NCBI GenBank assembly: GCA_018897435.1
Contig: JAHIKI010000063.1
Coordinates: 16-64,015 of the forward strand
From: Acidobacteriota bacterium
GTDB taxonomy: Bacteria; Acidobacteriota; Aminicenantia; UBA2199
Direction: 5' to 3'
DNA length: 64,000 nucleotides
Shown here piece by piece: positions 36,672-64,000 of this stretch (position 1 is its first letter; every line of letters begins with the position of its first letter). The position numbers and the translations under genes were made by a program. Below the pieces are notes generated by a model, which was given only the letters and a program-made list of their open reading frames with translations, was not told the origin of the DNA and ran no database searches.

Positions 36672-37489
36672 AAAAGATTAACGTGTTGGAAAAAGAGATA
36701 GCCCTCTACAAGAAAGATGATGAGGATTATATCTGCATAACCGATATCGCCAGATATAAAAACCCGGATAGAACGGATGACTTGATCAGAAACTGGCTTA
36801 GAAACAGGAATACGATTGAATTCTTGGGGGTTTGGGAGCATTTGAACAATCCGGATTTTAAAGCCGTCGAATTCGACGGGTTTAAAAAACAGGCGGGCCT
36901 TAATAGCTTTACATTGACTCCCAAGCAATGGATTGAAAAGACAAACGCCATTGGGTTGATATCCAAGGCGGGAAGATACGGCGGAACCTATGCCCACAAA
37001 GACATTGCTTTCGAGTTTGCGTCTTGGATTTCCGTTGAATTCAAGTTATACCTGATCAAGGAGTTCCAGCGCTTAAAGGACGAAGAGCACAAGCAGCTCG
37101 GCTGGGATATTCGGCGGAATCTGACCAAAATCAACTACCGGATTCATACCGGCGCCATCAAAGAGAACCTGATCCCGCCGGAACTCACTTTACGCCAGAC
37201 AAACCTAATCTACGCCTCGGAGGCGGATATTCTGAACATGGCCTTATTCGGCATAACCGCAAAGGAATGGCGTGACAGCCATCCGGGCGATAAGGGCAAT
37301 ATTCGAGACTACGCGAATGTGTCGCAGCTCGTTTGCCTCTCCAATCTGGAAAACCTGAATGCCCTTTTTATTCGGGAAAAGACACTACAGGCGGAGCGAC
37401 TCCGCAAATTGAACCAGATCGCAATCCAGCAGATGAGACTGCTGACGAATGACACTGGAATCAAGCGTCTTGAAGCGGGGGACAAATAA
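36668..37489 (+). CDS. KilA-N domain protein embedded between mod and res
   Basis: 273 aa. [34 protein letters not shown]...[21 protein letters not shown] matches the KilA-N family seen in R-M loci. GTGA overlap with mod and TAATG overlap with res. Confidence 0.75.
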
Positions 37490-40239
37490 TGGCGCTCCAT
37501 CCCAATTTCCCCGAATCGCCCTATGCCATCCTCGACCCGGCTATCCGCTGGTTTCCCGCCGATGAAGCCTTGCGCGAGACCAGTATGGAAAAGTTGATGC
37601 CGCCGTTGGTTTCGCAACTGCGCAAGAAAGTAAAAGAGTGGCGGGACAGTGGCTATGCCGGAGCGACAAACACCAGCAAGAGCCTGCTTAACTGGTGGTT
37701 TAACACCCCGCACCTGTTGCCCCAGGCTTATCTCCCCTCGCCTTCTGGGAGAGGGGTTGGGGGTGAAGGCTTGGCTGAGTTCCAATATTATTTTGCCCAA
37801 CGTGAAGCTCTGGAGACAATCATTTTTTTATACGATGTAGTGGGTGTCAAAGACAAATTCGACATGATGCGTTTTGACAGCTCCGGCCTGGTTTCGGCGA
37901 ATATGTTTGATGAAACCTGGCGACGCTTTGTGGTAAAAATGGCGACCGGTTCCGGGAAAACCAAAGTGTTGAGCCTGGTGCTGGCTTGGAGTTTTTTCCA
38001 TAAGCTGTATGAGGCGGGTTCAGAACTGGCGCGTAATTTCCTGGTGATCGCTCCCAACATCATTGTCCTGGACCGCATCTACAAGGATTTTCAGGGCTTG
38101 CGCATTTTTATTAAAGACGACCCGATTCTACCTGAAAACGGAGTGGACGGACACAACTGGCGCGATGATTTTCAAATGACTCTCCATGTGCAGGACGAAG
38201 TGAAGATCACCCGTCCCACGGGAAACATCTTCCTGACCAATATCCACCGCGTCTATGCCGGTGATGATATTCCAGCTTCGCCAAGCGACGAAAATACAAT
38301 GGATTATTTTTTGGGCAAAAAGCCAAGTGGGGCAACTATTGATTCCAAAGTGGATTTGGGCATGATTGTCCGCGATATTGATGAACTGATGGTTCTCAAT
38401 GATGAAGCCCATCATATTCACGACCCCCGCATGGCCTGGTTCAAGTCCATTGAGGATATCCATAACCGCCTGAAACAAAAGGGGGCCGCCCTTTCCATGC
38501 AGGTTGATACCACTGCAACCCCCAGGCATAACAATGGAGCGATATTCGTGCAAACGGTGGCCGATTATCCATTGGTTGAAGCCATCTCTCAGAATGTGGT
38601 CAAGCATCCAGTGCTTCCTGATCAACCGAGTCGTGCCAAATTGGATGAACGGCAGAGTGCCAAATATACCGAGAAATACGCTGACTATATTCACCTCGGA
38701 GTGATTGAGTGGCGCAAGGCGTATGCCGAACATGAAAAGATGGGTAAGAAAGCCATCTTGTTTGTCATGACCGACGATACCCGGAATTGCGATGATGTTG
38801 CCGAATATCTTGAAAGTAATTATCAGGATCTGAAAGATGCGGTACTGGTCATTCATACAAAAAAGAATGGTGAAATATCTGAATCAAGCACAGGCAAGGA
38901 CAAAGAGGAATTGGATAAGCTGCGCAAACAAGCCAATGATATTGATAGTCTGGACAGCCCTTACAAGGCCATCATTTCCGTAATGGTGCTTAAAGAGGGC
39001 TGGGATGTACGCAATGTCACCACTATTGTGGGATTACGCCCTTATGCCGCTCAAAGCAATATTCTGCCGGAACAGACATTGGGACGCGGTCTGCGCAAGA
39101 TGTATCCTGGTTTCATTGAAGAATATGTCAGTGTGGTTGGGACAAATGCGTTCATGGAATTCGTTGAATCGATCCAGGCAGAAGGCGTGGTGTTGGAGCG
39201 AAAGCCGATGGGGGAGGGAACTCAACCTAAAACCCCATTGGTTGTTGAAGTTGACAAAGAAAATGTCAAGAAAGATATTGATTCGTTGGACATTGAAATC
39301 CCGGTGCTGACTCCCCGTGTTTATCGGGAATATAAAAATCTGGGCGACCTTGATATTCACTCCTTAGGACATCAACGTGTGATCTATCGCCAGTTTTCAG
39401 AAGAGGAACAGCGTGAGATTGTATTCAAGGATATCACCACGGGCCAAGTAACACATACGACCATCCTTGATTCCGTTGGTGTTGCTGACTATAGCAGTGT
39501 AATCGGATATTTTACCCAGACAATCATGAAAGATTTAAGGTTGGTCAGCGGCTACAATGTGCTTTATGGAAAGGTAAAGGATTTTGTCAAAAATGAACTT
39601 TTCGATCACCCAGTGGAACTGGAAATTCCCAACACCCTGCGCAACTTGTCTGAATTGGCGGCAACAAAAACCCTGGTCGAGACGTTGAAAAAAGCAATTA
39701 ATGCCCTTACCGTAAAAGAAAAAGGCGACCTGTCTGCGTGCGGCCACGCACAGGCAGGCGCGGAAATTCGGGATTCAATAAAGCTTAGACAAACCCGCCC
39801 CTTTGTGGCCAAGGATCAGGGATATCTAATCCCGAAAAAAAGTGTCTTTAACCGGATCATTGGTGATAGCCATTTAGAGTTGTTGTTCGCCCGCTTCCTG
39901 GAAGATTGTGATGATGTGGTCTCCTACGCCAAGAATTATATGGCGGTACATTTCAAGCTGGATTATGTCAAGGCTGATGGCGACATCTCCAACTATTATC
40001 CTGATTTTATGGTCAAGCTGACTGACAAGCGAATTTTTATTGTTGAAACAAAAGGCATTGAAGACCTGGACGTCCCGCTCAAGATGGAGAGACTTCGGCA
40101 ATGGTGCATTGATATCAACCATATACAAACAGCCATAAAATACGACTTCGTCTATGTGGACCAGGAAAGCTTTGAAAAATTCCGGCCATCGTCCTTCAAA
40201 CAGTTGATTGATGGTTTCAGAATGTACAAAAAGAAATAA
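37489..40239 (+). CDS. res: Type III restriction enzyme Res subunit (SF2 helicase plus C-terminal PD-(D/E)xK nuclease)
   Basis: 916 aa. Motif I MATGSGKT, motif II LNDEAHH, and the C-terminal nuclease motif YYPDF...FIVETKG. Confidence 0.88.
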   Translation: MALHPNFPESPYAILDPAIRWFPADEALRETSMEKLMPPLVSQLRKKVKEWRDSGYAGATNTSKSLLNWWFNTPHLLPQAYLPSPSGRGVGGEGLAEFQYYFAQREALETIIFLYDVVGVKDKFDMMRFDSSGLVSANMFDETWRRFVVKMATGSGKTKVLSLVLAWSFFHKLYEAGSELARNFLVIAPNIIVLDRIYKDFQGLRIFIKDDPILPENGVDGHNWRDDFQMTLHVQDEVKITRPTGNIFLTNIHRVYAGDDIPASPSDENTMDYFLGKKPSGATIDSKVDLGMIVRDIDELMVLNDEAHHIHDPRMAWFKSIEDIHNRLKQKGAALSMQVDTTATPRHNNGAIFVQTVADYPLVEAISQNVVKHPVLPDQPSRAKLDERQSAKYTEKYADYIHLGVIEWRKAYAEHEKMGKKAILFVMTDDTRNCDDVAEYLESNYQDLKDAVLVIHTKKNGEISESSTGKDKEELDKLRKQANDIDSLDSPYKAIISVMVLKEGWDVRNVTTIVGLRPYAAQSNILPEQTLGRGLRKMYPGFIEEYVSVVGTNAFMEFVESIQAEGVVLERKPMGEGTQPKTPLVVEVDKENVKKDIDSLDIEIPVLTPRVYREYKNLGDLDIHSLGHQRVIYRQFSEEEQREIVFKDITTGQVTHTTILDSVGVADYSSVIGYFTQTIMKDLRLVSGYNVLYGKVKDFVKNELFDHPVELEIPNTLRNLSELAATKTLVETLKKAINALTVKEKGDLSACGHAQAGAEIRDSIKLRQTRPFVAKDQGYLIPKKSVFNRIIGDSHLELLFARFLEDCDDVVSYAKNYMAVHFKLDYVKADGDISNYYPDFMVKLTDKRIFIVETKGIEDLDVPLKMERLRQWCIDINHIQTAIKYDFVYVDQESFEKFRPSSFKQLIDGFRMYKKK
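37730..37769. repeat. 40-bp GC-rich repeat inside res (inverted partner of 36429)
   Basis: ATCTCCCCTCGCCTTCTGGGAGAGGGGTTGGGGGTGAAGG is read in frame as [13 protein letters not shown]. Confidence 0.9.
39729..39760. repeat. 32-bp imperfect palindromic element inside res
   Basis: CCTGTCTGCGTGCGGCCACGCACAGGCAGGCG encodes LSACGHAQAGA in frame. It matches 60501-60532 at 31/32 positions. Confidence 0.9.
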
Positions 40240-40244
40240 AAGAA

Positions 40245-41423
40245 GTGACTACTTCACGAATTGTTAATATTTCGGAAAATCTAGTAGCTCAAATAAATTC
40301 TAATATTTTTTTTCAAGAATTCACTTTTCAGAAAAACGAATTCTACCCTCCTGATACAAAAATTGAACTTCAATTAGCTGATAATGTTGTTTGGATTGAT
40401 GACTTACTTTTTATTTTTCAGATAAAAGATAGAAATAAAGATAGCTTATGTGATTCATCTAGTGAGTCAAAATGGTATCAAAATAAAGTAATAAAAAAGG
40501 GAGTTAGTCAGATAAAAGATACATTAGAATATTTTTCTAAGTACCCTCAAATTATTATCCAAAATGAAAGAGGATATAAAATAGATGTAGCAAAAGCAAA
40601 ACAAACTTTCATAAAAAATATTATTATTTTTAACCCAAATGAAAAATTTCCAGACGATCTTAGGTTCAACAAATTTCATGAAAGTAGAACAGCAGGGATA
40701 ATTCATCTTTTTCATATTGAAGATTATTTTAATATTTGTAAATATTTGATTACTCCATCTGAAATCAACGAATATCTTGAGTTCAGAGAAAAAATATATC
40801 TTAAACATAAATGTATTATAAACAATTTTCCTGAACAATACGTTTTGGGTCATTTTCTTGAAACGAGTGATATTTCTTTCATTAAACCTGAATATGTTGA
40901 AACTCTTAAGAGATTTAAACAAGAGTATTCAAATGATATTTTATTTTCAATTATTAAAATTTTTCGTGATAATACTGAAACTTATGAAAAAAAAGATGAT
41001 TATTTTTATATCCTAAAAGAAATAGCAAAACTTAAAAGAAATGAGTTTAAAGAATTTCAAAAACGATTTTTTATTTCTATTGAAAAATGTAATGAACAGA
41101 ATATCGTAGTTCCATATAGAATTTCTTTTCCAAGGATCAATTGTGGTTTTGTGTTTATCCCTTTAGCAAAAAAAAATTCAAATAATTGGAAAATAGCATT
41201 GCATAACTACACCATGGTTCACAAGTATGATCAAAAGCTTTCCAAATGTATTGGAATAATCTTTTTTAAAAGTTCTAACTCAAGATTGTCTTATGAAGTA
41301 TTCTGGGAATATGTTGAGATCGACTGGACTTATAATGAAGAAATGGAAAAAGTAATAAAGGAAAAATTTCCTTTTAGAGAAATACATGAGCACGAATTAG
41401 AAAGATATGAATTTGATAAATAA
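40245..41423 (+). CDS. hypothetical protein, very AT-rich, possible PD-(D/E)xK-like motif
   Basis: 392 aa. GTG start 5 nt after the res stop. IELQLADNVVWIDDLLFIFQIKDR could be a D...(E/Q)-x-K nuclease core. Composition differs strikingly from mod/res. Confidence 0.5.
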   Translation: MTTSRIVNISENLVAQINSNIFFQEFTFQKNEFYPPDTKIELQLADNVVWIDDLLFIFQIKDRNKDSLCDSSSESKWYQNKVIKKGVSQIKDTLEYFSKYPQIIIQNERGYKIDVAKAKQTFIKNIIIFNPNEKFPDDLRFNKFHESRTAGIIHLFHIEDYFNICKYLITPSEINEYLEFREKIYLKHKCIINNFPEQYVLGHFLETSDISFIKPEYVETLKRFKQEYSNDILFSIIKIFRDNTETYEKKDDYFYILKEIAKLKRNEFKEFQKRFFISIEKCNEQNIVVPYRISFPRINCGFVFIPLAKKNSNNWKIALHNYTMVHKYDQKLSKCIGIIFFKSSNSRLSYEVFWEYVEIDWTYNEEMEKVIKEKFPFREIHEHELERYEFDK

Positions 41424-54355: not shown

Positions 54356-54372
54356 TGTCCCAAATTGGGACA
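54356..54372. promoter_or_regulatory. 17-bp palindromic operator candidate, site 1
   Basis: TGTCCCA-AAT-TGGGACA, a perfect inverted repeat. Confidence 0.5.
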
Positions 54373-54428
54373 TCGGCCGGGGCTGGTGACGAAATCTTTA
54401 TCGGAAAAGCCTCTTCAAGCCCGAGCTC

Positions 54429-54445
54429 TGTCTTATTTTGGGACA
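54429..54445. promoter_or_regulatory. 17-bp palindromic operator candidate, site 2 (degenerate)
   Basis: TGTCTTA-TTT-TGGGACA, with two mismatches in the left half-site. Confidence 0.4.
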
Positions 54446-54496
54446 GTAAGCGATTTTTTAGCAAATGCCCATTTGGATTGGTTTTGCGACCCGCGC

Positions 54497-54513
54497 TGTC
54501 CCATTTTGGGACA
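54497..54513. promoter_or_regulatory. 17-bp palindromic operator candidate, site 3
   Basis: TGTCCCA-TTT-TGGGACA, a perfect inverted repeat flanked by CCGCG/CCGCGG. Confidence 0.5.
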
Positions 54514-54692
54514 ACCGCGGCGAGATGATTTGCCGCCCGATTTGCTTTTTTAAAAAAAAGGTAGTAAGATTAAACTAATTGTGAGATATTAATGAAATCA
54601 GGAATTCTTTTTTATATATATAAATCAATTCTCCCTGAAATTGATTTTTTTGAAACGATTGGTTGTCAGGAGGGCGCGTGATATTTTTTAAG

Positions 54693-56782: not shown

Positions 56783-56929
56783 GGGATTTTTCCAACAGCG
56801 TCGCATTTCCCCGCGCGCCGGACACCGGCGGCAGCTTGGGCGGCCGGGAACAAGACCACCGAGATATATACCCATGTTTCCATGAAAAACATAGGGAAAA
56901 TAAGGAGTCCATTTGATGAGCTCGACTAA
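56783..56929 (+). pseudogene. C-terminal remnant of a tyrosine recombinase/integrase
   Basis: The in-frame translation ends ...AAGNKTTEIYTHVSMKNIGKIRSPFDELD*. TTEIYTHV carries the catalytic Tyr box and ...SPFD is a typical integrase tail. Upstream sequence is degenerate and lacks a start. Confidence 0.6.
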
Positions 56930-56955: not shown

Positions 56956-57085
56956 GGTTATCAAGTTATCATCTACCAGAGGTGGACATACCATACCGTC
57001 AGAGTGGTTATCATCTACTTTTAAGTGGAGCTGTTAAAGTGAAAATATCACTACCAGGTAGTGTTAGCGAGTAGTTGTGCGAAAT
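56956..57085 (+). other. attI-like recombination site region
   Basis: Direct repeats GGTTATCA-AGTTATCATCTAC (56956-56976) and GGTTATCATCTAC (57006-57018). Palindrome CACTACCAGGTAGTG (57049-57063). Core-like GTTAGCG (57063) and GTTGTGCGAAAT (57074-57085); the latter is identical to the end of the attC at 62629-62640. Confidence 0.45.
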
Positions 57086-58174
57086 ATGCTTCACTATTTT
57101 ACAAAGATAAAGATGCCGAGTAGGATAGAAATGAAAGGTAAACTGAATAAATCATATTTAAATCAACTAGTAAAAAATGTTATTACAAAAAAATATATTT
57201 ACGGAGCTGTTTTTTATGTATCATCTGATGACAACAGCATCGATTTAATCAGTGCATCCGGAAATATGAAAGAAGATAGTCAATACTATATCGCCAGCAT
57301 AAATAAGTTTTTTGTTTCTGCAATCATCCTGAAATTGTATACAGAAAACAAATTAGACCTGCAGGATAAAATCTCAAAATACCTTCCGCAAGAGGTAGTT
57401 CGGGGATTACATTTACATAAGGGAAAGGAATTTTCTAATGACCTTTCCATTGCCCATCTGATGTCTCATACCTCGGGGCTCCCCTGTTATCTGACCGATA
57501 AACAAGCCAACGGAAAAACAGCGATGAAAGAGCTTGAAGCAGGCATTGATCAACCCTGGCCAATTCACAAAGTAATTCAAGAGGTAAAAAGGATGAAAAC
57601 ACACTTTCCTCCCGGGAAAGAAGGCAGGGCTAAATATATTGATACAAACCATCTAATTTTGGGCTTAATCATAGAAAACATTACAGGAGAGCCTGTAAAT
57701 ATTGTCCTGAAAAATCTGTTTCAAGAACTGAACCTAACTAAAACTTATGTGTGTGAAGATGCAAATGATAAAAATTTTGTTCCCATCCGTTATAAATCGG
57801 AAACAAGACATATTCCGCTTTTTCTCACCTCTACACAAAATGATATTATTTCCACTGCAAAGGACCAAATGACATTTTTAAAAGCATTCTTCAGCGGTTA
57901 TTTTTTCCCAAAGGAAAGACTGAACGAATTGGAGAAGTGGAATGACATTTTCTTTCCTTTTAAATATGGTATCGGCATACAAAAATTCTATATGCCCCGC
58001 ATTCTTTCGCCTTTTCATCCCGTACCCGATATGGTCGGTCATTGTGGTTCTACCGGTTCAGCGGCTTTTTATGTGCCTGATATGGATCTCTACATAACGG
58101 GATCTATAAACCAGCAAGCAAGGCCTAATATCGCGTTTCAGACCATGATAAAAATTATTAATAAATTGAGTTAA
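57086..58174 (+). CDS. serine hydrolase, beta-lactamase/esterase (class C-related) family; cassette 1
   Basis: S-x-x-K nucleophile motif in YYIASINKF and HTSGLP further on. Start uncertain (57086, 57113 or 57131). Confidence 0.75.
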   Translation: MLHYFTKIKMPSRIEMKGKLNKSYLNQLVKNVITKKYIYGAVFYVSSDDNSIDLISASGNMKEDSQYYIASINKFFVSAIILKLYTENKLDLQDKISKYLPQEVVRGLHLHKGKEFSNDLSIAHLMSHTSGLPCYLTDKQANGKTAMKELEAGIDQPWPIHKVIQEVKRMKTHFPPGKEGRAKYIDTNHLILGLIIENITGEPVNIVLKNLFQELNLTKTYVCEDANDKNFVPIRYKSETRHIPLFLTSTQNDIISTAKDQMTFLKAFFSGYFFPKERLNELEKWNDIFFPFKYGIGIQKFYMPRILSPFHPVPDMVGHCGSTGSAAFYVPDMDLYITGSINQQARPNIAFQTMIKIINKLS

Positions 58175-58210
58175 TAAAATGGTTGTTAAGGAAGAAATAA
58201 GGAAGCATAC

Positions 58211-58283
58211 TTCATACAACAGCGGCTATGCGGTTTCGCTCCCTTCGGTCGCAACTTCGGGTAGCCGCCACCGTTATCTGACA
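58211..58283 (+). other. attC-like site 1
   Basis: The inverse-core-like box CATACAAC (58213) plus AGCGGCTATGCGG pairs imperfectly with GTAGCCGCCACC plus the core-like box GTTATCT (58273-58279). Confidence 0.6.
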
Positions 58284-58341
58284 TTCGGCTTATGATCGAA
58301 ACAAGTTATCGAAGATAAATCTATTAGGAGGTGTGTATAAA

Positions 58342-59019
58342 ATGACAAGATATATGTCAAAGGGAAAATGTAGTTTTTGTAATGAAACCTTCGGTAAGGC
58401 AGCAATGACTAAACACTTGAAGTCATGCAAACAAAAAAAATCTGCGGCGGAGACAATAGCGGAGAAGCGAAAGTTACAGAGAACAGAGATTTTACATCTT
58501 GTAGTTGAGGGGCGCGATTTGCCTGAGTATTGGATGCATCTTTCTGTGCCAGCTAATGCAACTCTTAAAGACTTGGACGGCTTCCTCAGAGATATCTGGT
58601 TGGAGTGCTGTGGGCACCTAAGTGCGTTCACAATCGAAGGGAAGAGATACTCTATACACCCGATGAAAGAGTATGACGAAAGAAGCATGAAGGGTGCGCT
58701 GGGGGATGTAGTTGGCCTTGGAATGAAGTTTTATCATGAGTATGACTTCGGCACTACTACGGAGCTTTCCCTGCGAGTTATGTCAGGACAGGAACGTGAA
58801 GCTAAGGGTAAATCCATTCAGCTTCTGGCTAGGAATAACCCTCCATCGATAGCCTGTGAATCGTGTGGAAAAATTGCTACACAAGTGTGCACTGAATGTA
58901 TCTGGCCGGACAAAGGATGGCTTTGCGATAAATGTGGTCGCAAACATGAGTGTGGCGAAGATATGCTCTTGCCCGTAGTTAATTCTCCACGAGTTGGGAT
59001 GTGTGGATATACAGGATAG
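58342..59019 (+). CDS. pRiA4b ORF-3-like (PF07929-type) domain protein with zinc-ribbon termini; cassette 2
   Basis: ATG at 58342 lies 11 nt after AGGAGG. LHLVVEG...WMHLSVPANATLKDLDGFLRDIWLECCGHLSAF...YHEYDFGTTTEL resembles PF07929. CSFC...C and CESCG...CTEC...CDKCG clusters. Confidence 0.55.
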   Translation: MTRYMSKGKCSFCNETFGKAAMTKHLKSCKQKKSAAETIAEKRKLQRTEILHLVVEGRDLPEYWMHLSVPANATLKDLDGFLRDIWLECCGHLSAFTIEGKRYSIHPMKEYDERSMKGALGDVVGLGMKFYHEYDFGTTTELSLRVMSGQEREAKGKSIQLLARNNPPSIACESCGKIATQVCTECIWPDKGWLCDKCGRKHECGEDMLLPVVNSPRVGMCGYTG

Positions 59020-59171: not shown

Positions 59172-60284
59172 ATGATGACCAAGAAAATCTTAATAATTGG
59201 AACAATATTTTTGATTGTTTTGTCATTTGGTTTCATCAACTGCAATAATATTGATGTTGATGAAAGCGGAAACCCGTGCGATGGAGCCGATTCAATATAC
59301 AAGGCAAAATGCAACGAACTCAACTCATGGCTCGACCAGAGATTGGTTGAATGGAAACCTGCGGAATACAAACCGATGAATTTCTGTGTGTATCACGTAT
59401 ATGCAAGCGACAATATGTTTGTAAAATCAAATGCAGATTTTGACATTAAAATGCTGGATGCTATCGAGGGAGTGAACCCGGATACTGTCGTGCTGTACAT
59501 CCGGCCTGGAGGTTACTTCTCGCAAAAAGAAAGATATGATGCGCTTATAAACAGAATACGGGATGACGGCAAAAAGCTGTTTATAGGCGCCCGCTTCGAT
59601 GATGTAAATATGGACTTCAACGGATACGGCAACGCATTGGAGAATTATACGAAAAACATCATTGCACTGATAAAGCCGGATTATTATGGAATTGTCTTAG
59701 AGCCTATGACCATGGAGCAAAAATACAATTTTGATGCAACCGATGAGCAATGGGTGGCGTTGGTTGACCGGATAGCGAAATTATCAAAACAGCTAAGTCC
59801 TGCTACGAAAACAGTTGCTGATGGGCACAAAGAGGAGCTTAATTTTTTGCAAATGGCTTCTGCTCTTGCATCCGTGGATATTATCGCGTTTAACATATAC
59901 GAAACGCAAGGGATTTATTCTGAATACTCGGGGTATTTGGGAAACGGCGATGTTGTCGGAAACTCCATTGACTTTGCAAACTCAAAAGGAAAAGAAACAT
60001 GGATGCTGGAGACATGGACGTCAGCAAATATAGGGGCTTTTCAGACATCTATGAGCACAAAAGAATTCATGAAGCCGATTGACGCCAAATGGGTGAGGGT
60101 CCTGACATATTATGCACAAAGACATAACATGAATGCGATTGTTCCGTTTTATACTGGAAAATTTGTGTATTATGGAACAGATCCGAACGAACTTCTGTCA
60201 GCGATTAATGCTGGAAGCAGAACGCCTGTGTTTTATGCTTACAAATCAATCATAGAAGAAGTTAGAAAGAATATGGGGAAATAA
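59172..60284 (+). CDS. lipoprotein, possible clan GH-A-like glycoside hydrolase; cassette 3
   Basis: MMTKKILIIGTIFLIVLSFGFINC signal/lipobox. Candidate catalytic Glu contexts are GIVLEPM and ETWMLETW. Strong SD GGAGG upstream. Confidence 0.45.
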   Translation: MMTKKILIIGTIFLIVLSFGFINCNNIDVDESGNPCDGADSIYKAKCNELNSWLDQRLVEWKPAEYKPMNFCVYHVYASDNMFVKSNADFDIKMLDAIEGVNPDTVVLYIRPGGYFSQKERYDALINRIRDDGKKLFIGARFDDVNMDFNGYGNALENYTKNIIALIKPDYYGIVLEPMTMEQKYNFDATDEQWVALVDRIAKLSKQLSPATKTVADGHKEELNFLQMASALASVDIIAFNIYETQGIYSEYSGYLGNGDVVGNSIDFANSKGKETWMLETWTSANIGAFQTSMSTKEFMKPIDAKWVRVLTYYAQRHNMNAIVPFYTGKFVYYGTDPNELLSAINAGSRTPVFYAYKSIIEEVRKNMGK

Positions 60285-60447
60285 AATTTTGAGGAGGTAT
60301 ATTGTATGGTCAAAACAATGATTAGAAAGATGCTGGTGCCAAGACGCGTGAGCGTAGTTTCTACCTATCTTTAGGAATTTCGTTTGGTCTACATGGAAAA
60401 TTGTTTAAGTAAAATGCTATTGAAATCCAGTAAAGCAACGTCATACT

Positions 60448-60564
60448 TCGCATGACAGCGGATAAAAGGGGGAAATTTCATTTCCCCAAAAAATTGCCTT
60501 CCTGTCTGCGTGCGGACACGCACAGGCAGGCGGCAACTTCTTTATCCGCATACGTTATATGACA
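60448..60564 (+). other. attC-like site 3 (long, with nested hairpins)
   Basis: CATGAC (60451) plus AGCGGATAAAAG pairs with CTTTATCCGCATAC, followed by GTTATAT (60554-60560). The flanks are homologous to attC-like site 1 (CATACTTC...AGCGG / GTTATNTGACATTC). Confidence 0.55.
60501..60532. repeat. 32-bp imperfect palindromic element inside attC-like site 3
   Basis: CCTGTCTGCGTGCGGACACGCACAGGCAGGCG matches the copy inside res (39729-39760) at 31/32 positions. Confidence 0.9.
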
Positions 60565-60632
60565 TTCCGCCCCTTCACCACAGGGAAATATATAAAAAGT
60601 TGCTAAAATAAGTATGGAATACTGAGGAAAAA

Positions 60633-61148
60633 ATGACAACAATAGAAGAAATACTCCATTCAAAAAAGAAACCAAAAGAAATTATTACTCTTTTGGCTGA
60701 AAAGTTAAAGAGTGATAAAAAATCAGTAGCAGAACTTATCAAATGCTTTGATAGGGGATCTGATACTGAAAAAGGAAATTGTATGGAAGCAATAGAATAT
60801 GTCACCAAGGAAGATCCGGAATTTGCAAAAAACTGCCTTGACTTTGTTATTGAACATATCAATGACAAAGCTCCGAGAGTAAAATGGGAAACTGCAAGGA
60901 TAATCGGTAATGTTGCCCAAAGATTTCTAGATAAAGTTGAAGAAGCTGTCCCTAAGCTTTTAGTAAACACCAATGATAAAGGCACAGTTGTGAAATGGAG
61001 TGCGGCCTTTGCTTTAACTGAAATCGCAAGAAATAATCCTGAACTTAAGAAAGAACTTACTACTAAGTTTAATGAAATAATGAAAATAGAGTCTAACAAA
61101 GGTGTAAAGAACATTTACTTAAAATATCTGGAGGAAGTTGAACAATGA
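60633..61148 (+). CDS. HEAT/ARM-like repeat protein; cassette 4, gene 1
   Basis: 171 aa and all-helical. Repeat pattern ...DKAPRVKWETARIIGNVA... / ...DKGTVVKWSAAFALTEIA... Confidence 0.5.
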   Translation: MTTIEEILHSKKKPKEIITLLAEKLKSDKKSVAELIKCFDRGSDTEKGNCMEAIEYVTKEDPEFAKNCLDFVIEHINDKAPRVKWETARIIGNVAQRFLDKVEEAVPKLLVNTNDKGTVVKWSAAFALTEIARNNPELKKELTTKFNEIMKIESNKGVKNIYLKYLEEVEQ

Positions 61149-61630
61149 TAGATGATGTGAGAGGAATAATTGAAAAAGGCATTCATTCCTTAAGTGATGC
61201 TCTCCCTGAAATCAGGAAACTGGCTATGGATGAGGATTGGAAAAAGCGTGAAGATGCAGCTACTGCTTTGGTGGAAATTAGTAAAAAGAGAGAGGATGAG
61301 GTTATTCAGGAAATGATAATCTGGGCCGGGGACGTTGATCCTAATATCAGGAGGGTTGCCAGCGAGGGCTTGAGAGGTGTTGCACGAAGAAATCCAGAAA
61401 AGATTTTACCTGTAATTGATAAATTAAAGGCTGATGATAGCATCTATGTTAAGAAATCTATTGCTGCTCTTTTTAGGGCAATAAGCAAGAGAAATGCGGA
61501 ATTCGTCTTGGATTTATGCAGAAAATGGACAAAGTCAAAGAACAAAAATATACAATGGATTATTAAAGATGGTATGAAGAAACTATCTTTGGGACAACAG
61601 GAAGAATTAAAATCTTTATTAAGTGAATAA
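61145..61630 (+). CDS. HEAT-repeat protein, DNA-alkylation-repair (AlkC/AlkD, PF08713)-like; cassette 4, gene 2
   Basis: 161 aa. DEDWKKREDAATAL and DPNIRRVASEGLRGVARRNPE are reminiscent of PF08713 (from memory). ATGA overlap with gene 1. Confidence 0.45.
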   Translation: MIDDVRGIIEKGIHSLSDALPEIRKLAMDEDWKKREDAATALVEISKKREDEVIQEMIIWAGDVDPNIRRVASEGLRGVARRNPEKILPVIDKLKADDSIYVKKSIAALFRAISKRNAEFVLDLCRKWTKSKNKNIQWIIKDGMKKLSLGQQEELKSLLSE

Positions 61631-61631
61631 A

Positions 61632-62519
61632 ATGCTCAATGAAATCCAAGTAAAATCAATCTTGAACAAGCACAAAAAGAGAGACGATTGGTTTTTGGAC
61701 GATTACTCAGTAAACCCTTATTCGGGTTGCTCATTCAATTGTATTTATTGCTATGTCAGAGGAAGTAAATATGGGGAAAACAGGGCAAATACATTATCAG
61801 TAAAAATAAATGCCCCAGAACTATTAGAGAAACAACTTTTCGGAAGGGCAAAGAAAGGAGAATATGGAATTATTGCTTTGTCTTCCTCAACAGAACCTTA
61901 CATGCCAATTGAAGAAAAATTGAAACTAACAAGAAGATTACTTGAGATAATTTTAAAATATAGATTTCCTGTTGAGATATCAACAAAATCAAGTCTTGTT
62001 TTAAGAGATTTGGATTTATTGAAAGAGATTGATAAAAATGCAATTTTGCCAAGCGATCTGAAACCCAAACTAAAGCGAGGAGTAATTATTTCTTTTTCAA
62101 TCTCAACTTTTGATGAAAAGCTAGCAAAGATTCTTGAGCCAGGAGCGCCTACGGCGAAAGAAAGATTAGAAACAATGCAAAAATGTAAAGAGGAGGGGTT
62201 TTTTGCTGGAGTATGTCACATTCCAGTATTGCCTTTTTTATCAGACGCAGAAGAAGAACTTGATAGGACGATAAAAACCATAAAAAATTATGGAGCAGAC
62301 TTTATTTTTATCGGTGGATTAACTTTGTTTGGTAAAGGTCCTGCGGATTGTAAGACATTCTACTATAAATTCTTGGAGAAATATTATCCTGAACTTGTGC
62401 CAAAATACAAAAGTTTGTATAGAATATTTTTTGCACCGTCAAAAGAATATCAAAAAGAACTTGAAGAAAAATTAAAAAGGTTGTGTGAGAAATATGGAAT
62501 CAAAAACGGGATCATTTAA
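61632..62519 (+). CDS. radical SAM protein, SplB/DNA-repair-photolyase (COG1533)-like; cassette 4, gene 3
   Basis: NPYSGCSFNCIYCYVR carries the CxxxCxxC cluster in the context typical of the SPL family. ATG at 61632 lies 1 nt after the gene 2 stop (the ORF track starts at a GTG at 61623). Confidence 0.7.
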   Translation: MLNEIQVKSILNKHKKRDDWFLDDYSVNPYSGCSFNCIYCYVRGSKYGENRANTLSVKINAPELLEKQLFGRAKKGEYGIIALSSSTEPYMPIEEKLKLTRRLLEIILKYRFPVEISTKSSLVLRDLDLLKEIDKNAILPSDLKPKLKRGVIISFSISTFDEKLAKILEPGAPTAKERLETMQKCKEEGFFAGVCHIPVLPFLSDAEEELDRTIKTIKNYGADFIFIGGLTLFGKGPADCKTFYYKFLEKYYPELVPKYKSLYRIFFAPSKEYQKELEEKLKRLCEKYGIKNGII

Positions 62520-62549
62520 TAGCGGCTTCGGGGCGGAACGCTTCATTCG

Positions 62550-62638
62550 GGTCATATAACACGGGCTATACGGCTCGTTTCACTCGCCCAAATTCCGCCA
62601 AAGGCGGAACTTCGTATAGCCCGAAACCGTTGTGCGAA
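62550..62638 (+). other. attC-like site 4
   Basis: CATATAAC (62553) plus ACGGGCTATACG pairs with CGTATAGCCCGAAAC (62613), followed by GTTGTGC (62629-62635). The central TTCACTCGCCCAAAT is homologous to TTCGCTCACCCAAAT in site 2. Confidence 0.65.
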
Positions 62639-62667: not shown

Positions 62668-63258
62668 ATGAAACACTTTTTATTATATCCATTAATTGGG
62701 GTGCTATTCTTATTTGGCGGATGTGGTAACAATCCGCCATGGCAAGGCGATTATTTCTTCTCTTTCGAACATGACATGGAAGGATGGGTAGCAAAGGGGA
62801 CGGATTTAGATAATCCACCCGTGGAATGGTCTATTCAACGAACTCAGGAGATAGTGAAGGATGGGAATACTGCCTTAAAATTTTATCTGTCAAATTTAAA
62901 TGATGCAGGTAAAATTTGGATTGAACGATCATTTGATGTAAAATCTGATAGCCTGTATCAAGTTAATGTGAGGTATTCTTTTGCAAGCGCTGATTTTGGT
63001 GATCTAAATCTTTGGACAATCATTACAGGTGTTATTCAGGAACCACCACAGTCAAGAGATGACCTTATTTATCAAGGGGATACTGGAAATGGTTCCAAAG
63101 CAGACACCGGTTATAAGTGGCTGGAAAAAAGTTACGATTTTACTGTGCAGTCGAGTTCGTCAGGCAAGCTCTATGTTATTATCGGCATTTGGGGAACATG
63201 GGAAACAACTCGTACATACTATGTAGATGTAGTCCAAGTATCTTTCATCGAAAAATAG
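62668..63258 (+). CDS. hypothetical lipoprotein; cassette 5
   Basis: MKHFLLYPLIGVLFLFGGC lipobox. AAGGAG SD upstream. No family recognised. Confidence 0.6.
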   Translation: MKHFLLYPLIGVLFLFGGCGNNPPWQGDYFFSFEHDMEGWVAKGTDLDNPPVEWSIQRTQEIVKDGNTALKFYLSNLNDAGKIWIERSFDVKSDSLYQVNVRYSFASADFGDLNLWTIITGVIQEPPQSRDDLIYQGDTGNGSKADTGYKWLEKSYDFTVQSSSSGKLYVIIGIWGTWETTRTYYVDVVQVSFIEK

Positions 63259-63261
63259 CAG

Positions 63262-64000
63262 GGATATAACCAAATGTTGTGTATGGAGTAAAAAAAAGAT
63301 ATGGCGTATGCTGAACCTTTCAAATTCAGTTTAGCAACAAAATCAAAAGGAGGCATACGCCACATGGAAGATTTTACCAGAGAGTTCATTGCAAGTCTAA
63401 TCGGAAAGCCGTTGAGAGAAATCGTGCAGGTAGGAGCCCAGAAAATAGTGGAGGAAGCGGTATTGGCCGAGTTTGAGATATTTATGCGCCAGTATTCGGC
63501 TTTATTGGACGGCAGAGGCAGGCAAGGGGTGGTACGCAACGGCAGCCATCGCGAGCGGGCGATCATAACCGCAGCCGGAGAGTTGAACGTAAAAGTTCCC
63601 CGCGTTCGTGACCGCCGGGAGGGGGACGTGGAAAAAGCGCAATTCCGCAGTTCGATTTTACCGCCATATCTGCGCCGGGCCAAGGAAATGGATGAGTTCA
63701 TTCCGTATCTTTATTTAAAGGGCATTTCGACCGGTGATTTTTCCGGGGTGTTGAGCCACTTGCTGGGAAAGGAAACGTTCATTTCGGCCAATACGGTCGT
63801 GCGCTTGAAGGAGATCTGGGAGGAAGAATACCTGGCCTGGAACCAAACGGATTTGGCAGAGAAGCAGTACCTGTACTGGTGGGTGGACGGGGTGCATTTT
63901 AATGTCCGTTTGGAAAATGATCGAAGCTGCATATTGGTTATTATCGGGGTGACCGAAGATGGCAAAAAGGAACTGCTGGCAGTGGCCGACGGTCTGCGGG
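63262..64000 (+). mobile_element. IS256-family insertion sequence (left end; continues beyond the window)
   Basis: GGATATAACCAAATGTTGTGTATGGAGTAAAAAAAAG resembles the IS256-type terminal repeat (GATAAAGTCCGTATAATTGTGTAAAA, from memory). A transposase ORF follows. Confidence 0.7.
63364..64000 (+). CDS. IS256-family (Mutator-like) transposase, 5' partial at the window edge
   Basis: Absent from the ORF track because it is open at the window end. I translated it as MEDFTREFIASLIGKPLREIV...ILPPYLRRAKEMDEFIPYLYLKGISTGDF...YLYWWVDGVHFNVRLENDRSCILVIIGVTEDGKKELLAV, typical of IS256 transposases up to the first catalytic D region. An in-frame upstream ATG lies at 63301. Confidence 0.85.
   Translation, partial: MEDFTREFIASLIGKPLREIVQVGAQKIVEEAVLAEFEIFMRQYSALLDGRGRQGVVRNGSHRERAIITAAGELNVKVPRVRDRREGDVEKAQFRSSILPPYLRRAKEMDEFIPYLYLKGISTGDFSGVLSHLLGKETFISANTVVRLKEIWEEEYLAWNQTDLAEKQYLYWWVDGVHFNVRLENDRSCILVIIGVTEDGKKELLAVADGLR

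What the first reader, a model, noticed from the sequence alone, without database searches (positions are those of the whole stretch)
60555..62629. A three-gene cassette: two HEAT-repeat proteins plus an SplB-like radical SAM enzyme
Integron cassettes usually carry one ORF. The unit bounded by the core boxes at 60554 and 62629 instead carries three translationally coupled genes (ATGA overlap at 61145; gene 3 ATG 1 nt after the gene 2 stop). They encode a 171-aa HEAT/ARM-like protein, a 161-aa protein reminiscent of AlkC/AlkD-type DNA-alkylation-repair HEAT proteins, and a radical SAM protein whose CSFNCIYCY cluster context matches spore-photoproduct-lyase / COG1533 DNA-repair-photolyase-like enzymes. 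A mobile module that couples DNA-binding HEAT scaffolds to a radical SAM lyase would be a candidate DNA-lesion or DNA-modification processing system. It could also act against modified phage DNA. I know of no characterised system with this composition.
Basis: inference. Interest (0 to 1): 0.65.

Follow-up and report, generated by a model that had tools for sequence, protein, structure and literature searches.

The report
Mobile three-gene HEAT–radical SAM cassette
A 2,075-base integron cassette carries two small HEAT-repeat proteins and a spore-photoproduct-lyase-like radical SAM enzyme as one unit; it moves between bacteria and archaea and is most likely an uncharacterised DNA-damage repair module.

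Summary
Window 60555-62629 is a single integron cassette bounded by two folding attC sites. It holds three coupled genes: HEAT1 (171 aa), HEAT2 (161 aa) and a radical SAM enzyme (295 aa). No recombination site lies between them.

A 99.5% identical copy sits in another groundwater bacterium. Identity begins and ends at the cassette borders. Diverged copies (rSAM 78-88% identical) occur in Archaea and Bacteria with at least 8 different downstream contexts. All three genes are under purifying selection.

HEAT2 belongs to the AlkC/AlkD DNA-alkylation-repair family (PF08713). The enzyme is a COG1533 (SplB-like) relative but is not a true spore photoproduct lyase. HEAT1 is a generic four-repeat ARM/HEAT solenoid.

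The conserved core is the pair PF08713 protein plus rSAM. They are adjacent in 40 of 80 species-level genomes, in either gene order, sometimes with an O6-methylguanine methyltransferase in between. HEAT1 is an accessory that also occurs alone.

The best reading is an oxygen-independent DNA-lesion repair module. That function is inferred, not shown. I found no support for anti-phage defence and no published description of this pairing.

The parts
60443..60560 (+). Upstream attC site. Formally it is the 3' end of the preceding cassette. Its R' core GTTATAT (60554-60560) supplies the G|TT crossover that starts the triad cassette. It carries an embedded 31-nt palindrome at 60501-60531.
   Evidence: The bottom strand folds at -29.6 kcal/mol, z = -6.3. 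It has the same arm motifs as the attC at 58195-58285 (families D10 and D18).
60555..62629 (+). The complete three-gene integron cassette (2,075 bp).
   Evidence: L087 and L090 are 99.5% identical over 60552-62635 and unrelated outside that span. The same 5' end (TTATATGACATTCCGCCCC) and the same 3' attC are seen behind unrelated sequence in L001 and L007.
60555..62632 (+). Placeholder removed; see the rows below.
   Evidence: Not a separate feature. It repeats the cassette span and is kept only so that the coordinates stay explicit.
60555..60632 (+). Conserved 78-nt cassette leader with an A/T-rich stretch (AAATATATAAAAAG) and a GAGGA ribosome-binding site.
   Evidence: The leader is conserved between the window, L001 and L007. 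The sigma-70 scan called no promoter inside it.
60633..61148 (+). HEAT1, a 171-aa four-repeat ARM/HEAT solenoid and accessory subunit.
   Evidence: Pfam HEAT_EZ and ARM_TBCD_2nd. AlphaFold2 pLDDT is 96.2, and the best natural Foldseek match is CpcF, TM 0.74. dN/dS is 0.14-0.17.
61145..61630 (+). HEAT2, a 161-aa PF08713 (AlkC/AlkD-type) HEAT protein corresponding to the C-terminal two thirds of AlkD-like proteins.
   Evidence: PF08713 scores 26.6 bits against a gathering score of 21. AlkC is the best solved relative at E 1.2e-9. hhalign against the 250-aa AlkD-like partner family gives probability 99.2%, E 1.8e-19. dN/dS is 0.07-0.11.
61632..62519 (+). Radical SAM enzyme, 295 aa, with CSFNCIYC cluster motif (C33, C37, C40). 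It belongs to a COG1533 / SplB-like clade.
   Evidence: PF04055 at E 3e-17. NCBIfam Rv2578c at 1.6e-51 and PA0069 at 1e-45, both below their cutoffs. The only solved relatives by profile search are spore photoproduct lyases, E 0.06. dN/dS is 0.05-0.06.
62520..62635 (+). The cassette's own attC. The conserved left arm is GGCGGAACGCTTC..TTCGGGTCATATAAC, the imperfect inverted repeat is ACGGGCTATACG / CGTATAGCCCG, and the R' core is GTTGTGC at 62629-62635.
   Evidence: The bottom strand folds at z = -4.0. The same attC follows the triad in L001, L006, L008 and L007, with different sequence after GTT. The left arm is shared by an attC family in 43 metagenome contigs.
56826..56929 (+). Context: remnant of the 3' end of an integron-type tyrosine recombinase gene (..TTEIYTHVSMKNIGKIRSPFDELD*), about 145 nt upstream of the first core site GTTGTGC at 57074.
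   Evidence: Translation. The 32-aa peptide matches the last 24 positions of TIGR02249 integron integrase, E 2.5e-4.

Best explanation
**What it is (shown).** The unit is one integron gene cassette that carries a three-gene operon and moves as a block by attC recombination at G|TT. It has spread between Bacteria and Archaea.

**What it most likely does (inferred).** It is a DNA-damage repair module.
- HEAT2 is an AlkC/AlkD-type HEAT solenoid. It probably pairs with HEAT1 to form a two-chain solenoid that binds the DNA backbone and recognises a lesion without flipping the base.
- The solenoid would recruit or orient the basic, SplB-like radical SAM enzyme on the lesion.
- The enzyme would cleave S-adenosylmethionine reductively, abstract a hydrogen atom from the damaged nucleotide, and reverse or process the lesion.
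- The lesion is probably an alkyl or cross-link type adduct. The chemistry needs no oxygen, which suits the anaerobic groundwater and sediment hosts.

**How it is expressed.** As a cassette it is expressed from the array or from its own A/T-rich leader. It would give whichever host captures it extra tolerance to a genotoxic agent.

**Core and accessory.** The conserved functional core is the PF08713 protein plus the rSAM enzyme. HEAT1 is an accessory acquired in the mobile lineage.
For: **Mobility and unity of the cassette**
- A 99.5% identical copy has borders exactly at the core sites.
- The cassette ends are conserved in L001, L007, L006 and L008 behind unrelated flanks.
- There are at least 8 different downstream contexts.
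- The flanking attC sites fold, and no hairpin lies between the genes.
- rSAM homologues 78-88% identical occur in Syntrophoarchaeum, Methanoperedenaceae, Thermoplasmatales, Bathyarchaeota, Caldisericia, Dehalococcoidia and Latescibacterota.

**The genes are functional**
- dN/dS is 0.05-0.17 with saturated dS.
- Metatranscriptome contigs lie in HEAT1, across the HEAT1/HEAT2 junction, and in the rSAM gene.

**Link to DNA**
- HEAT2 is in PF08713. Its best solved relatives are AlkC and AlkD2.
- In 40 of 80 species-level genomes, a PF08713 gene lies on the same strand within 700 nt of the rSAM gene, usually within 10 nt. It is upstream in some lineages and downstream in Bacteroidota.
- Those partners score 1e-22 to 1e-27 against PF08713. 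The 250-aa upstream form aligns to AlkD at E 1.8e-12 and keeps its W109/D113/W187 motif.
- Three operon neighbours of the rSAM gene match PF01035. In two of these loci, L027 and L030, the protein has an intact PCHR active site and lies directly upstream of the rSAM gene; in L030 it lies between the HEAT gene and the rSAM gene.
- HEAT2 and the rSAM enzyme are basic, pI 9.1 and 9.0.
- The only solved relatives of the enzyme are spore photoproduct lyases.
- The wider COG1533 family is LexA/SOS-regulated in Bacteroidetes (PMC8565304) and M. tuberculosis (PMC3381160). It sits in SOS-linked repair operons (PMC3765255).

**HEAT1-HEAT2 pairing**
- The genes overlap as ATGA.
- The best natural structural match to HEAT1 is CpcF, one chain of the two-chain HEAT lyase CpcE/CpcF.
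Against: - No biochemical or genetic test exists for any member of this rSAM clade, so the substrate is unknown.
- HEAT2 has lost two AlkD catalytic-site identities. Glu36 aligns with Asp113 and Ile68 with Trp187, so it may only bind DNA.
- HEAT1 is a generic solenoid with neutral pI. Its homologues at 51-65% identity occur without HEAT2 or the rSAM gene. HEAT2-like proteins at about 50% identity also occur alone.
- Half of the 80 genomes have no adjacent HEAT gene.
- No Bacteroidetes SOS box lies upstream of the Bacteroidota members of this clade.
- The rSAM structure model is poor (pLDDT 56). Its fold matches are generic radical SAM enzymes.
Confidence: 0.5

Rival explanations
1. Anti-phage defence or DNA-modification cassette. 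The HEAT proteins would target foreign or modified DNA, and the radical SAM enzyme would damage or modify it, or make a toxic nucleotide analogue as viperins do.
For: - Integron arrays often hold defence genes and toxin-antitoxin pairs. MNT/HepT and MazE-like genes neighbour the triad in L001, L006 and L008.
- The window has a restriction-type island at 34-41 kb.
- A phage protein family, phrog_13321, is related to the enzyme at E 5e-56.
- Both HEAT proteins give a weak PADLOC OloA match, E 1e-4 to 3e-3.
Against: - The rSAM enzyme has no PADLOC match, and the HEAT proteins have only marginal ones.
- In Bacteroidota the pair sits in ordinary chromosomal contexts, next to GldD, DUF3109 and housekeeping genes.
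- The co-operonic partners are repair-type: MGMT and AP-endonuclease-fold proteins.
- Viral contigs hold only relatives at 31% identity or less, and none has a HEAT neighbour.
Confidence: 0.12
2. Self-protection against a specific DNA-alkylating natural product, analogous to AlkD-family resistance proteins such as YtkR2. The cassette would be a mobile resistance determinant to an environmental genotoxin. This is a narrower version of the repair reading.
For: - HEAT2 and its partners belong to PF08713.
- Glyoxalase/bleomycin-resistance-fold genes occur in 4 of the putative operons.
- Carriage on an integron is typical of resistance determinants.
Against: - No biosynthetic gene cluster was seen next to any locus.
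- The pair is conserved in many lineages as a chromosomal gene pair, which fits general repair better.
Confidence: 0.15
3. The module acts on RNA, on a protein or on a cofactor. HEAT solenoids would serve as a scaffold or chaperone for a radical SAM maturase or an RNA-modifying enzyme. Examples are the HEAT domain of QueG and the two-chain HEAT lyase CpcE/CpcF.
For: - HEAT1 is a generic solenoid whose best natural structural match is CpcF. It also matches NCBIfam phycobilin-lyase models weakly.
- HEAT2 has lost AlkD catalytic identities.
- Cysteine-rich DUF3795, DUF3109 and a membrane protein sometimes sit in the operon.
Against: - The conserved partner is specifically PF08713. All characterised members of that family bind DNA (established knowledge of AlkC, AlkD and YtkR2).
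- No tRNA-modification or peptide-precursor gene recurs in the neighbourhoods.
- MGMT is co-operonic.
Confidence: 0.13
4. The three genes are functionally unrelated and were joined by loss of attC sites between formerly separate cassettes. On this view there is no system.
For: - HEAT1-like and HEAT2-like genes exist as stand-alone genes in mobile contexts.
- Variants carry an extra gene between HEAT2 and the rSAM gene in L007, L175 and L176.
- L009 has a truncated HEAT2 plus a DUF3795 gene.
Against: - The genes overlap or nearly abut (-4 and +1 nt).
- All three are co-inherited under purifying selection across domains.
- PF08713-rSAM adjacency is independent of integrons and occurs in either gene order in 40 of 80 genomes.
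Confidence: 0.1

Closest known systems
Spore photoproduct lyase (SplB; TIGR04070 / PF20903; PDB 4FHC)
   Same: Both are radical SAM enzymes with an N-terminal CX3CX2C motif in the context Y..GC...C.YCY, and both carry the EPG..s...RL motif. SPL is the only solved relative found by profile search. It gives the highest TM-score to the model, 0.48-0.50. SPL acts directly on a DNA lesion.
   Different: The similarity is marginal: E 0.06 by profile, and 20 bits against a cutoff of 400 for TIGR04070. The protein is shorter (295 vs about 340 aa). The hosts do not form spores and many are archaea. SPL works without a HEAT partner.
Rv2578c-family and PA0069-family radical SAM proteins (COG1533, 'DNA repair photolyase'; NF038135, NF033668)
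   Same: These are the best curated matches, at 1.6e-51 and 1e-45, aligned over nearly the full length. That family is uncharacterised but SOS/LexA-linked (PMC3381160, PMC8565304, PMC3765255).
   Different: The scores are far below the family cutoffs (175 vs 430 bits; 156 vs 360 bits). No SOS box was found for this clade. The published partners of those families are ImuB-C, SRAP and UDG, not HEAT proteins.
AlkD / AlkC / AlkD2 HEAT-repeat alkylpurine DNA glycosylases (PF08713)
   Same: HEAT2 passes the PF08713 gathering score, and AlkC and AlkD2 are its best solved relatives. The 250-aa partners of related rSAM genes align to AlkD with the W/D/W catalytic motif intact.
   Different: HEAT2 covers only profile positions 87-213. 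It has Glu for the catalytic Asp and Ile for the second Trp. It is encoded with a second HEAT protein and a radical SAM enzyme. Known AlkC and AlkD act alone as glycosylases.
ada-alkB type alkylation-repair operons (a methyltransferase plus a direct-reversal enzyme)
   Same: In L030 the operon order is AlkD-like protein, MGMT-type methyltransferase (PCHR site), rSAM enzyme; in L027 the MGMT-type gene directly precedes the rSAM gene with no HEAT gene detected. That is a suicide methyltransferase next to a candidate direct-reversal enzyme.
   Different: This is an analogy only. AlkB is an Fe/2-oxoglutarate dioxygenase that needs O2. Nothing shows that this rSAM enzyme dealkylates bases. The window cassette has no methyltransferase.
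CpcE/CpcF two-chain HEAT lyase (PDB 5N3U)
   Same: CpcF is the best natural full-length structural match to HEAT1 (TM 0.74 both ways, rmsd 3.1). In both cases two small HEAT proteins are encoded side by side.
   Different: Sequence identity is 19%. There is no bilin context. The match is structural and does not indicate function.
Integron gene cassettes, including archaeal integrons (Ghaly et al. 2022, PMC9668308)
   Same: The cassette is bounded by attC sites, has a G|TT crossover, occurs in different arrays, and is found in both Archaea and Bacteria. An integron-type recombinase precedes the array in L001.
   Different: It holds three coupled genes instead of the usual one. In the window only a 3' remnant of the recombinase gene remains. 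The papers I checked do not mention this cassette.

Membership tests
Integron gene cassette | Bounded by attC sites whose bottom strand folds into an imperfect hairpin with R''/L''-L'/R' boxes | tested here: met
   Window 62553-62637 folds at z = -4.0 and window 60443-60562 at z = -6.3, with 0 of 200 shuffles as good. The boxes ATATAAC..ACGGGCTATACG / CGTATAGCCCG..GTTGTGC are readable.
Integron gene cassette | Recombination crossover at G|TT of the R' core: the same cassette appears in different arrays with identity ending at the cores | tested here: met
   L087 and L090 are 99.5% identical over 60552-62635 only. The cassette ends are conserved in L001, L007, L006 and L008 with unrelated flanks. 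More contexts appear.
Integron gene cassette | An integron integrase (IntI) is associated with the array | tested here: inconclusive
   The window holds only a 32-aa C-terminal remnant that matches the end of TIGR02249, E 2.5e-4. L001 has an intact recombinase upstream on the same strand. It passes NF040815 'tyrosine recombinase/integron integrase' (253 vs 220 bits) but scores below the TIGR02249 cutoff (237 vs 265 bits).
Integron gene cassette | No recombination site inside the unit (it is a single cassette, not three) | tested here: met
   The intergenic distances are -4 and +1 nt. The junctions do not fold, z = -0.7 and -0.07.
Radical SAM superfamily (PF04055) | CX3CX2C cluster motif and a match to PF04055 above the gathering score | tested here: met
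   C33, C37 and C40 are invariant. PF04055 scores 63.7 bits against 29.5.
Spore photoproduct lyase (TIGR04070 / PF20903) | Score above the curated family cutoff | tested here: not met
   TIGR04070 scores 20.2 bits against 400, and PF20903 scores 14.5 against 27. The profile search against SPL chains gives E 0.06.
Rv2578c-family radical SAM (NF038135) | Score above the curated equivalog cutoff | tested here: not met
   The score is 175.2 bits against a cutoff of 430. PA0069 scores 156.3 against 360. The enzyme is a related clade, not a member.
PF08713 DNA_alkylation (AlkC/AlkD family), for HEAT2 | Score above the Pfam gathering score | tested here: met
   The score is 26.6 bits against 21, with residues 20-147 on profile positions 87-213. 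Precomputed PF08713 hits are listed for nearly all homologues.
PF08713 DNA_alkylation (AlkC/AlkD family), for HEAT2 | AlkD catalytic residues Trp109, Asp113 and Trp187. The roles of these residues come from published AlkD work that I recall; I did not re-read it here. | tested here: not met
   HEAT2 has W32 (aligned with Trp109), E36 (with Asp113) and I68 (with Trp187). This follows from the hhalign alignment to the AlkD-like partner family and that family's alignment to AlkD. The 250-aa partners of related rSAM genes keep all three.
PF08713 DNA_alkylation (AlkC/AlkD family), for HEAT1 | A detectable specific relationship to the family | tested here: inconclusive
   There is no Pfam PF08713 hit. 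hhalign against the AlkD-like partner family gives probability 84.5%, E 7e-6, on its N-terminal/middle part. The Foldseek top matches are generic ARM/HEAT proteins, with no AlkC or AlkD among the top 50.
Known anti-phage defence systems (PADLOC-DB 2.0) | A significant match of any component to a defence-system model | tested here: not met
   The rSAM enzyme has no hit. The HEAT proteins match only OloA, at E 1.5e-4 and 2.6e-3, 15-19 bits.
DNA repair enzyme (function) | Binds DNA and removes a lesion | not testable with these tools
   Only indirect evidence exists: homology, conserved adjacency, MGMT neighbours and basic pI.

The most novel reading that the evidence does not exclude
The PF08713 HEAT protein and the COG1533 radical SAM enzyme form a previously unrecognised, oxygen-independent direct-reversal DNA repair system. 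It would be an anaerobic counterpart of oxidative dealkylation: a non-base-flipping HEAT lesion sensor hands an alkylated or cross-linked nucleotide to a radical enzyme. Integrons have packaged this system as a three-gene cassette that is exchanged between Archaea and Bacteria.
Probability: 0.3. Interest if true: 0.85.

Novelty: new variant of a known kind. Interest (0 to 1): 0.62.

Why it matters
**An unassigned enzyme family.** COG1533 'SplB-like' radical SAM proteins are widespread and tied to the SOS response, yet none outside spore photoproduct lyase has a known substrate. This clade comes with a built-in clue. Its partner belongs to the AlkC/AlkD family, and in a few loci an O6-methylguanine methyltransferase is also present. 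That makes its chemistry directly testable with damaged-DNA substrates.

**Repair without oxygen.** If the enzyme repairs alkyl or cross-link lesions without O2, it would fill a gap in how strict anaerobes, including methane-cycling archaea, cope with lesions that aerobes repair oxidatively.

**Cross-domain transfer.** The cassette is a clear case of a multi-gene unit shuttled across the bacterial-archaeal divide by integrons. A 99.5% identical copy in a second host shows recent movement.

Tried and rejected
1. **SOS regulation.** I searched 21 Bacteroidota loci for the published Bacteroidetes LexA boxes (CTAA-N5-TTAG, GGA-N5-TCC) within 250 nt upstream of the rSAM gene. There were no CTAA boxes and one GGA box, so there is no support.
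2. **Defence.** PADLOC gave nothing significant.
3. **Phage carriage.** IMG/VR holds only relatives at 31% identity or less, with no HEAT neighbour. PHROGs does contain a related family of unknown function.
4. **rSAM structure.** The alignment allowed was shallow (sequences 77% identical or more). The model was poor (pLDDT 56), and Foldseek gave generic radical SAM matches. I treat this as inconclusive.
5. **HEAT1 plus HEAT2 as a split AlkD.** HEAT2 clearly equals the C-terminal part. HEAT1 aligns only weakly to the N-terminal/middle part, and its fold matches are generic. I keep this as a possibility, not a conclusion.
6. **Source of the window's own rSAM protein.** An exact look-up found nothing on record. 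The host could be placed only roughly. Its housekeeping proteins cluster with uncultured groundwater bacteria that carry inconsistent labels: Chrysiogenia, Aminicenantes and Patescibacteria.
7. **A cassette-specific 3' DNA pattern.** The pattern turned out to be the left arm of a whole attC family shared by unrelated cassettes. It cannot be used to count triads.
8. **Literature.** Searches for radical SAM with AlkD/HEAT, for COG1533, for Rv2578c and for archaeal integrons found no description of this pairing or cassette.


Full report
**1. The observation.**
- HEAT1 is 60633-61148 (171 aa).
- HEAT2 is 61145-61630 (161 aa). Its ATG overlaps the HEAT1 stop as ATGA.
- The radical SAM (rSAM) gene starts at the ATG at 61632, one base after the HEAT2 TAA, and ends at 62519 (295 aa).
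- An in-frame GTG at 61623 would give 298 aa. Most homologues are 295 aa and begin MVNEI, so the ATG is the likelier start.

The core sites GTTATAT (60554-60560) and GTTGTGC (62629-62635) are present.

The region is part of a low-GC cassette array, 35-44% GC against about 52% for the rest of the window. Further attC-like sites lie near 58.2, 59.1 and 63.27 kb. The other cassettes each hold a single gene:
- a PF00144 serine hydrolase / beta-lactamase-family gene;
- a PRiA4_ORF3-like gene;
- two genes of unknown function.

**2. Is it one cassette?**
As bottom-strand DNA, the two flanking attC regions fold much better than shuffled controls. The z-scores are -4.0 and -6.3, and 0 of 200 shuffles fold as well. 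The HEAT1/HEAT2 and HEAT2/rSAM junctions do not fold (z = -0.7 and -0.07). With gaps of -4 and +1 nt there is also no room for a site.

The strongest evidence is comparative. Contigs from a different groundwater bacterium (L087, L088, L090) have different genes on both sides. They carry a copy that is 99.5% identical over window 60552-62635, and the similarity stops at the two core sites.

Diverged copies at about 77% DNA identity occur in Candidatus Syntrophoarchaeum (L001), Methanoperedenaceae (L006, L008) and Thermoplasmatales (L007).
- L001 and L007 keep the same 5' end, G|TTATATGACATTCCGCCCC.
- L001, L006, L007 and L008 keep the same attC at the 3' end.
- The sequence before the first G|TT and after the second is unrelated in each case.
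- Together with the metagenome contigs, the triad is seen with at least eight different downstream contexts.
- In Caldisericia (L002-L005) the attC has decayed and the triad looks fixed in the chromosome.

The unit is therefore a genuine three-gene integron cassette.

**3. Integron context.**
In the window only the last 30 or so codons of a tyrosine recombinase gene survive (..TTEIYTHVSMKNIGKIRSPFDELD*, about 56826-56929). They lie on the same strand as the cassettes, about 145 nt before the first core site at 57074. The peptide matches the end of the integron-integrase model TIGR02249.

An IS256-family transposase gene starts near 63355 and runs off the window.

In L001 an intact 351-aa recombinase precedes the array on the same strand. 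It passes NCBIfam NF040815, 'tyrosine recombinase/integron integrase'. This fits the archaeal integrons described by Ghaly et al. (PMC9668308). That paper and a later functional survey (PMC10661359) do not mention this cassette.

**4. The proteins.**

*The rSAM enzyme.*
- It matches PF04055 (E 3e-17) and has the CSFNCIYC motif.
- Its best curated matches are the Rv2578c and PA0069 families of COG1533 (1.6e-51 and 1e-45). Both scores are far below the family cutoffs.
- Spore photoproduct lyase proper scores 20 bits against a cutoff of 400.
- A profile built from 32 clade members finds only spore photoproduct lyase chains in the PDB, at E about 0.06. The alignment covers the cluster motif and the EPG...RL motif.
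- The AlphaFold2 model was poor because only close homologues could be supplied (pLDDT 56).
- Foldseek returned generic radical SAM enzymes. Spore photoproduct lyase had the highest TM-score, 0.48-0.50.
- The enzyme is therefore 'SplB-like' at superfamily level only.

*HEAT2.*
- It passes the PF08713 DNA_alkylation gathering score, covering profile positions 87-213.
- Its best solved relatives are AlkC (E 1.2e-9) and AlkD2.

*HEAT1.*
- It is a confident four-repeat solenoid (pLDDT 96).
- Its fold matches are generic ARM/HEAT proteins.
- The best natural match is CpcF of the two-chain CpcE/CpcF lyase (TM 0.74).

*All three.*
- All three genes are under purifying selection against the archaeal and Caldisericia copies. 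dN/dS is 0.14-0.17 for HEAT1, 0.07-0.11 for HEAT2 and 0.05-0.06 for the rSAM gene, with dS above 1.
- HEAT2 and the rSAM enzyme are basic (pI 9.1 and 9.0). HEAT1 is neutral.

**5. What is conserved beyond the cassette.**
Close rSAM homologues (78-88% identity) are spread across very distant archaeal and bacterial phyla. That pattern indicates horizontal transfer.

A scan of species-representative genomes returned 80 loci at 45-86% identity. A profile of the HEAT2-like neighbours finds such a gene on the same strand within 700 nt of the rSAM gene in 40 of the 80 loci. The gap is usually 10 nt or less, or the genes overlap.
- The HEAT gene is upstream in WOR-3, Aminicenantes, Patescibacteria, Archaeoglobi and Thermoproteota. 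That form is about 250 aa.
- It is downstream in Bacteroidota, where the form is 189 aa.
- These partners are clear PF08713 members, E 1e-22 to 1e-27.
- The 250-aa form aligns to AlkD (E 1.8e-12) and keeps the WxxxD and NxW motifs that hold AlkD's Trp109, Asp113 and Trp187.

Profile-profile comparison puts HEAT2 on the C-terminal part of that family (probability 99.2%). Glu36 stands where the Asp is and Ile68 where the second Trp is.

HEAT1 aligns only weakly to the N-terminal/middle part (probability 84.5%).

Three putative operons contain a PF01035 protein. In two of them, L027 and L030, an O6-methylguanine-DNA methyltransferase domain protein with an intact PCHR site lies directly upstream of the rSAM gene. 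In L030 it sits between the HEAT gene and the rSAM gene; no HEAT gene was detected in L027.

Other recurrent operon neighbours across the 80 loci are few: DUF3795 (4), glyoxalase fold (4), DUF3109 (3) and AP-endonuclease fold (2).

HEAT1 is confined to the closest, mobile clade. Its homologues at 51-65% identity occur without the other two genes. HEAT2-like proteins at about 50% identity also occur alone in mobile contexts.

The conserved functional core is therefore PF08713 protein plus rSAM. HEAT1 is an accessory.

**6. Expression and ecology.**
The near-identical cassette is present in at least 20 groundwater or biofilm metagenome runs from more than ten studies.

One groundwater metatranscriptome holds contigs inside HEAT1, across the HEAT1/HEAT2 junction (61116-61335) and inside the rSAM gene. 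This is weak evidence for transcription, because DNA carry-over cannot be excluded.

**7. Interpretation.**

*Shown:*
- The unit is a mobile three-gene cassette that crosses domains.
- All three genes are constrained.
- A PF08713 protein and this rSAM clade are genetically coupled, independently of integrons and of gene order.

*Inferred:*
- HEAT2, probably as a two-chain solenoid with HEAT1, binds DNA at a lesion as AlkC and AlkD do.
- The solenoid positions the rSAM enzyme.
- The enzyme processes the lesion by hydrogen abstraction without oxygen.

*Supporting context from the literature:*
- COG1533 genes are SOS-regulated in Bacteroidetes (PMC8565304).
- Rv2578c has a LexA site (PMC3381160).
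- SplB-like rSAM genes sit in SOS-linked operons (PMC3765255).
- None of these papers reports a HEAT or PF08713 partner.

*Against:*
- There is no assay for any member of the clade.
- HEAT2 lacks two AlkD catalytic identities.
- Half of the clade has no adjacent HEAT gene.
- My SOS-box test on the Bacteroidota members was negative.

**8. Rivals.**
- *Anti-phage defence* is not supported. PADLOC gave nothing significant, viral contigs hold no close relatives and no HEAT neighbours, and the neighbours are repair-type. A related phage family of unknown function does exist.
- *An RNA, protein or cofactor role* cannot be excluded, but it fits the specific PF08713 link poorly.
- *A chance fusion of unrelated cassettes* is contradicted by the coupling, the selection and the integron-independent pairing.

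**9. Verdict.**
This is an uncharacterised variant of SplB-like radical SAM repair modules. It is distinguished by an AlkC/AlkD-type HEAT partner and by being packaged as a multi-gene cassette that crosses domains.
- Confidence that it is a single mobile three-gene cassette: about 0.95.
- Confidence that it acts in DNA-lesion repair: about 0.5.

Noticed in passing
window 60501-60531 and 39729-39759: The 31-nt palindrome CCTGTCTGCGTGCGGACACGCACAGGCAGGC sits inside the unusually long (about 120 nt) attC upstream of the triad. It recurs with one mismatch inside the 916-aa ORF 37489-40239. In one groundwater metagenome it has about 45 times the local depth and is flanked by many different sequences. 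It therefore looks like a dispersed short palindromic repeat of this community.
   Followed up: partly
window 56826-56929 and 57074: Only the last 30 or so codons of an integron-type tyrosine recombinase gene remain, on the same strand as the cassettes. The first core site GTTGTGCGAAAT (57074) repeats the sequence found after the triad's attC (62629). The array is a decayed integron (CALIN-like).
   Followed up: partly
window 63355-64000: An IS256-family transposase gene starts just after a short attC-like remnant (63258-63290) and runs off the window. It probably interrupts the cassette array.
   Followed up: partly
window 57077-58174, 58333-59019, 59172-60284, 62668-63258: The other cassettes each hold a single gene: a PF00144 beta-lactamase-family serine hydrolase, a PRiA4_ORF3-like protein with a zinc finger, and two proteins of 370 and 196 aa with N-terminal hydrophobic stretches resembling signal peptides and no Pfam match.
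   Followed up: partly
window 34413-41423: A low-GC island falls to 28% GC at 40-41 kb. It holds a 916-aa helicase-like ORF (37489-40239) that resembles a restriction-enzyme subunit by eye, followed by a 392-aa AT-rich ORF (40245-41423) of unknown function. It may be a restriction or defence island; I ran no family search on it.
   Followed up: no
window 54356-54518: Three copies of the palindrome TGTCCCAAATTGGGACA lie within 160 nt in the intergenic region before the nitronate-monooxygenase-like gene. They may be an operator array.
   Followed up: no
L141-L183 (metagenome contigs): The attC left arm CGGAACGCTTC(..)TTCGGGTCATATAACA is shared by 43 contigs. Most carry unrelated cassettes, so a homogeneous attC family spans many arrays. 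Some attCs have a 27-nt insertion (GTCGCTTCGCTCCTCGCCCTCACTTCG) that the window copy lacks.
   Followed up: partly
L007 7121-7645; L175, L176; L009 7289-7995: Variant cassettes exist. One form has a cysteine-rich membrane protein (174 aa) inserted between HEAT2 and the rSAM gene. Another has a truncated HEAT2 followed by a DUF3795 protein.
   Followed up: partly
L006/L008 about 4566-5000; L009; L134 4512-5000: In archaeal contigs a MazE/AbrB-like gene and a 42-aa cysteine-rich ORF (PTCKDCKFYEPIDE..) precede HEAT1, whether or not HEAT2 and the rSAM gene follow. This suggests that HEAT1 has its own partners.
   Followed up: no
L032, L033, L035, L045, L060, L077: In Methanobacteria the rSAM gene lies next to a second, divergently transcribed radical SAM gene of about 355-360 aa, and an F420-dependent-oxidoreductase-like gene lies downstream. 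This is probably lineage synteny.
   Followed up: no
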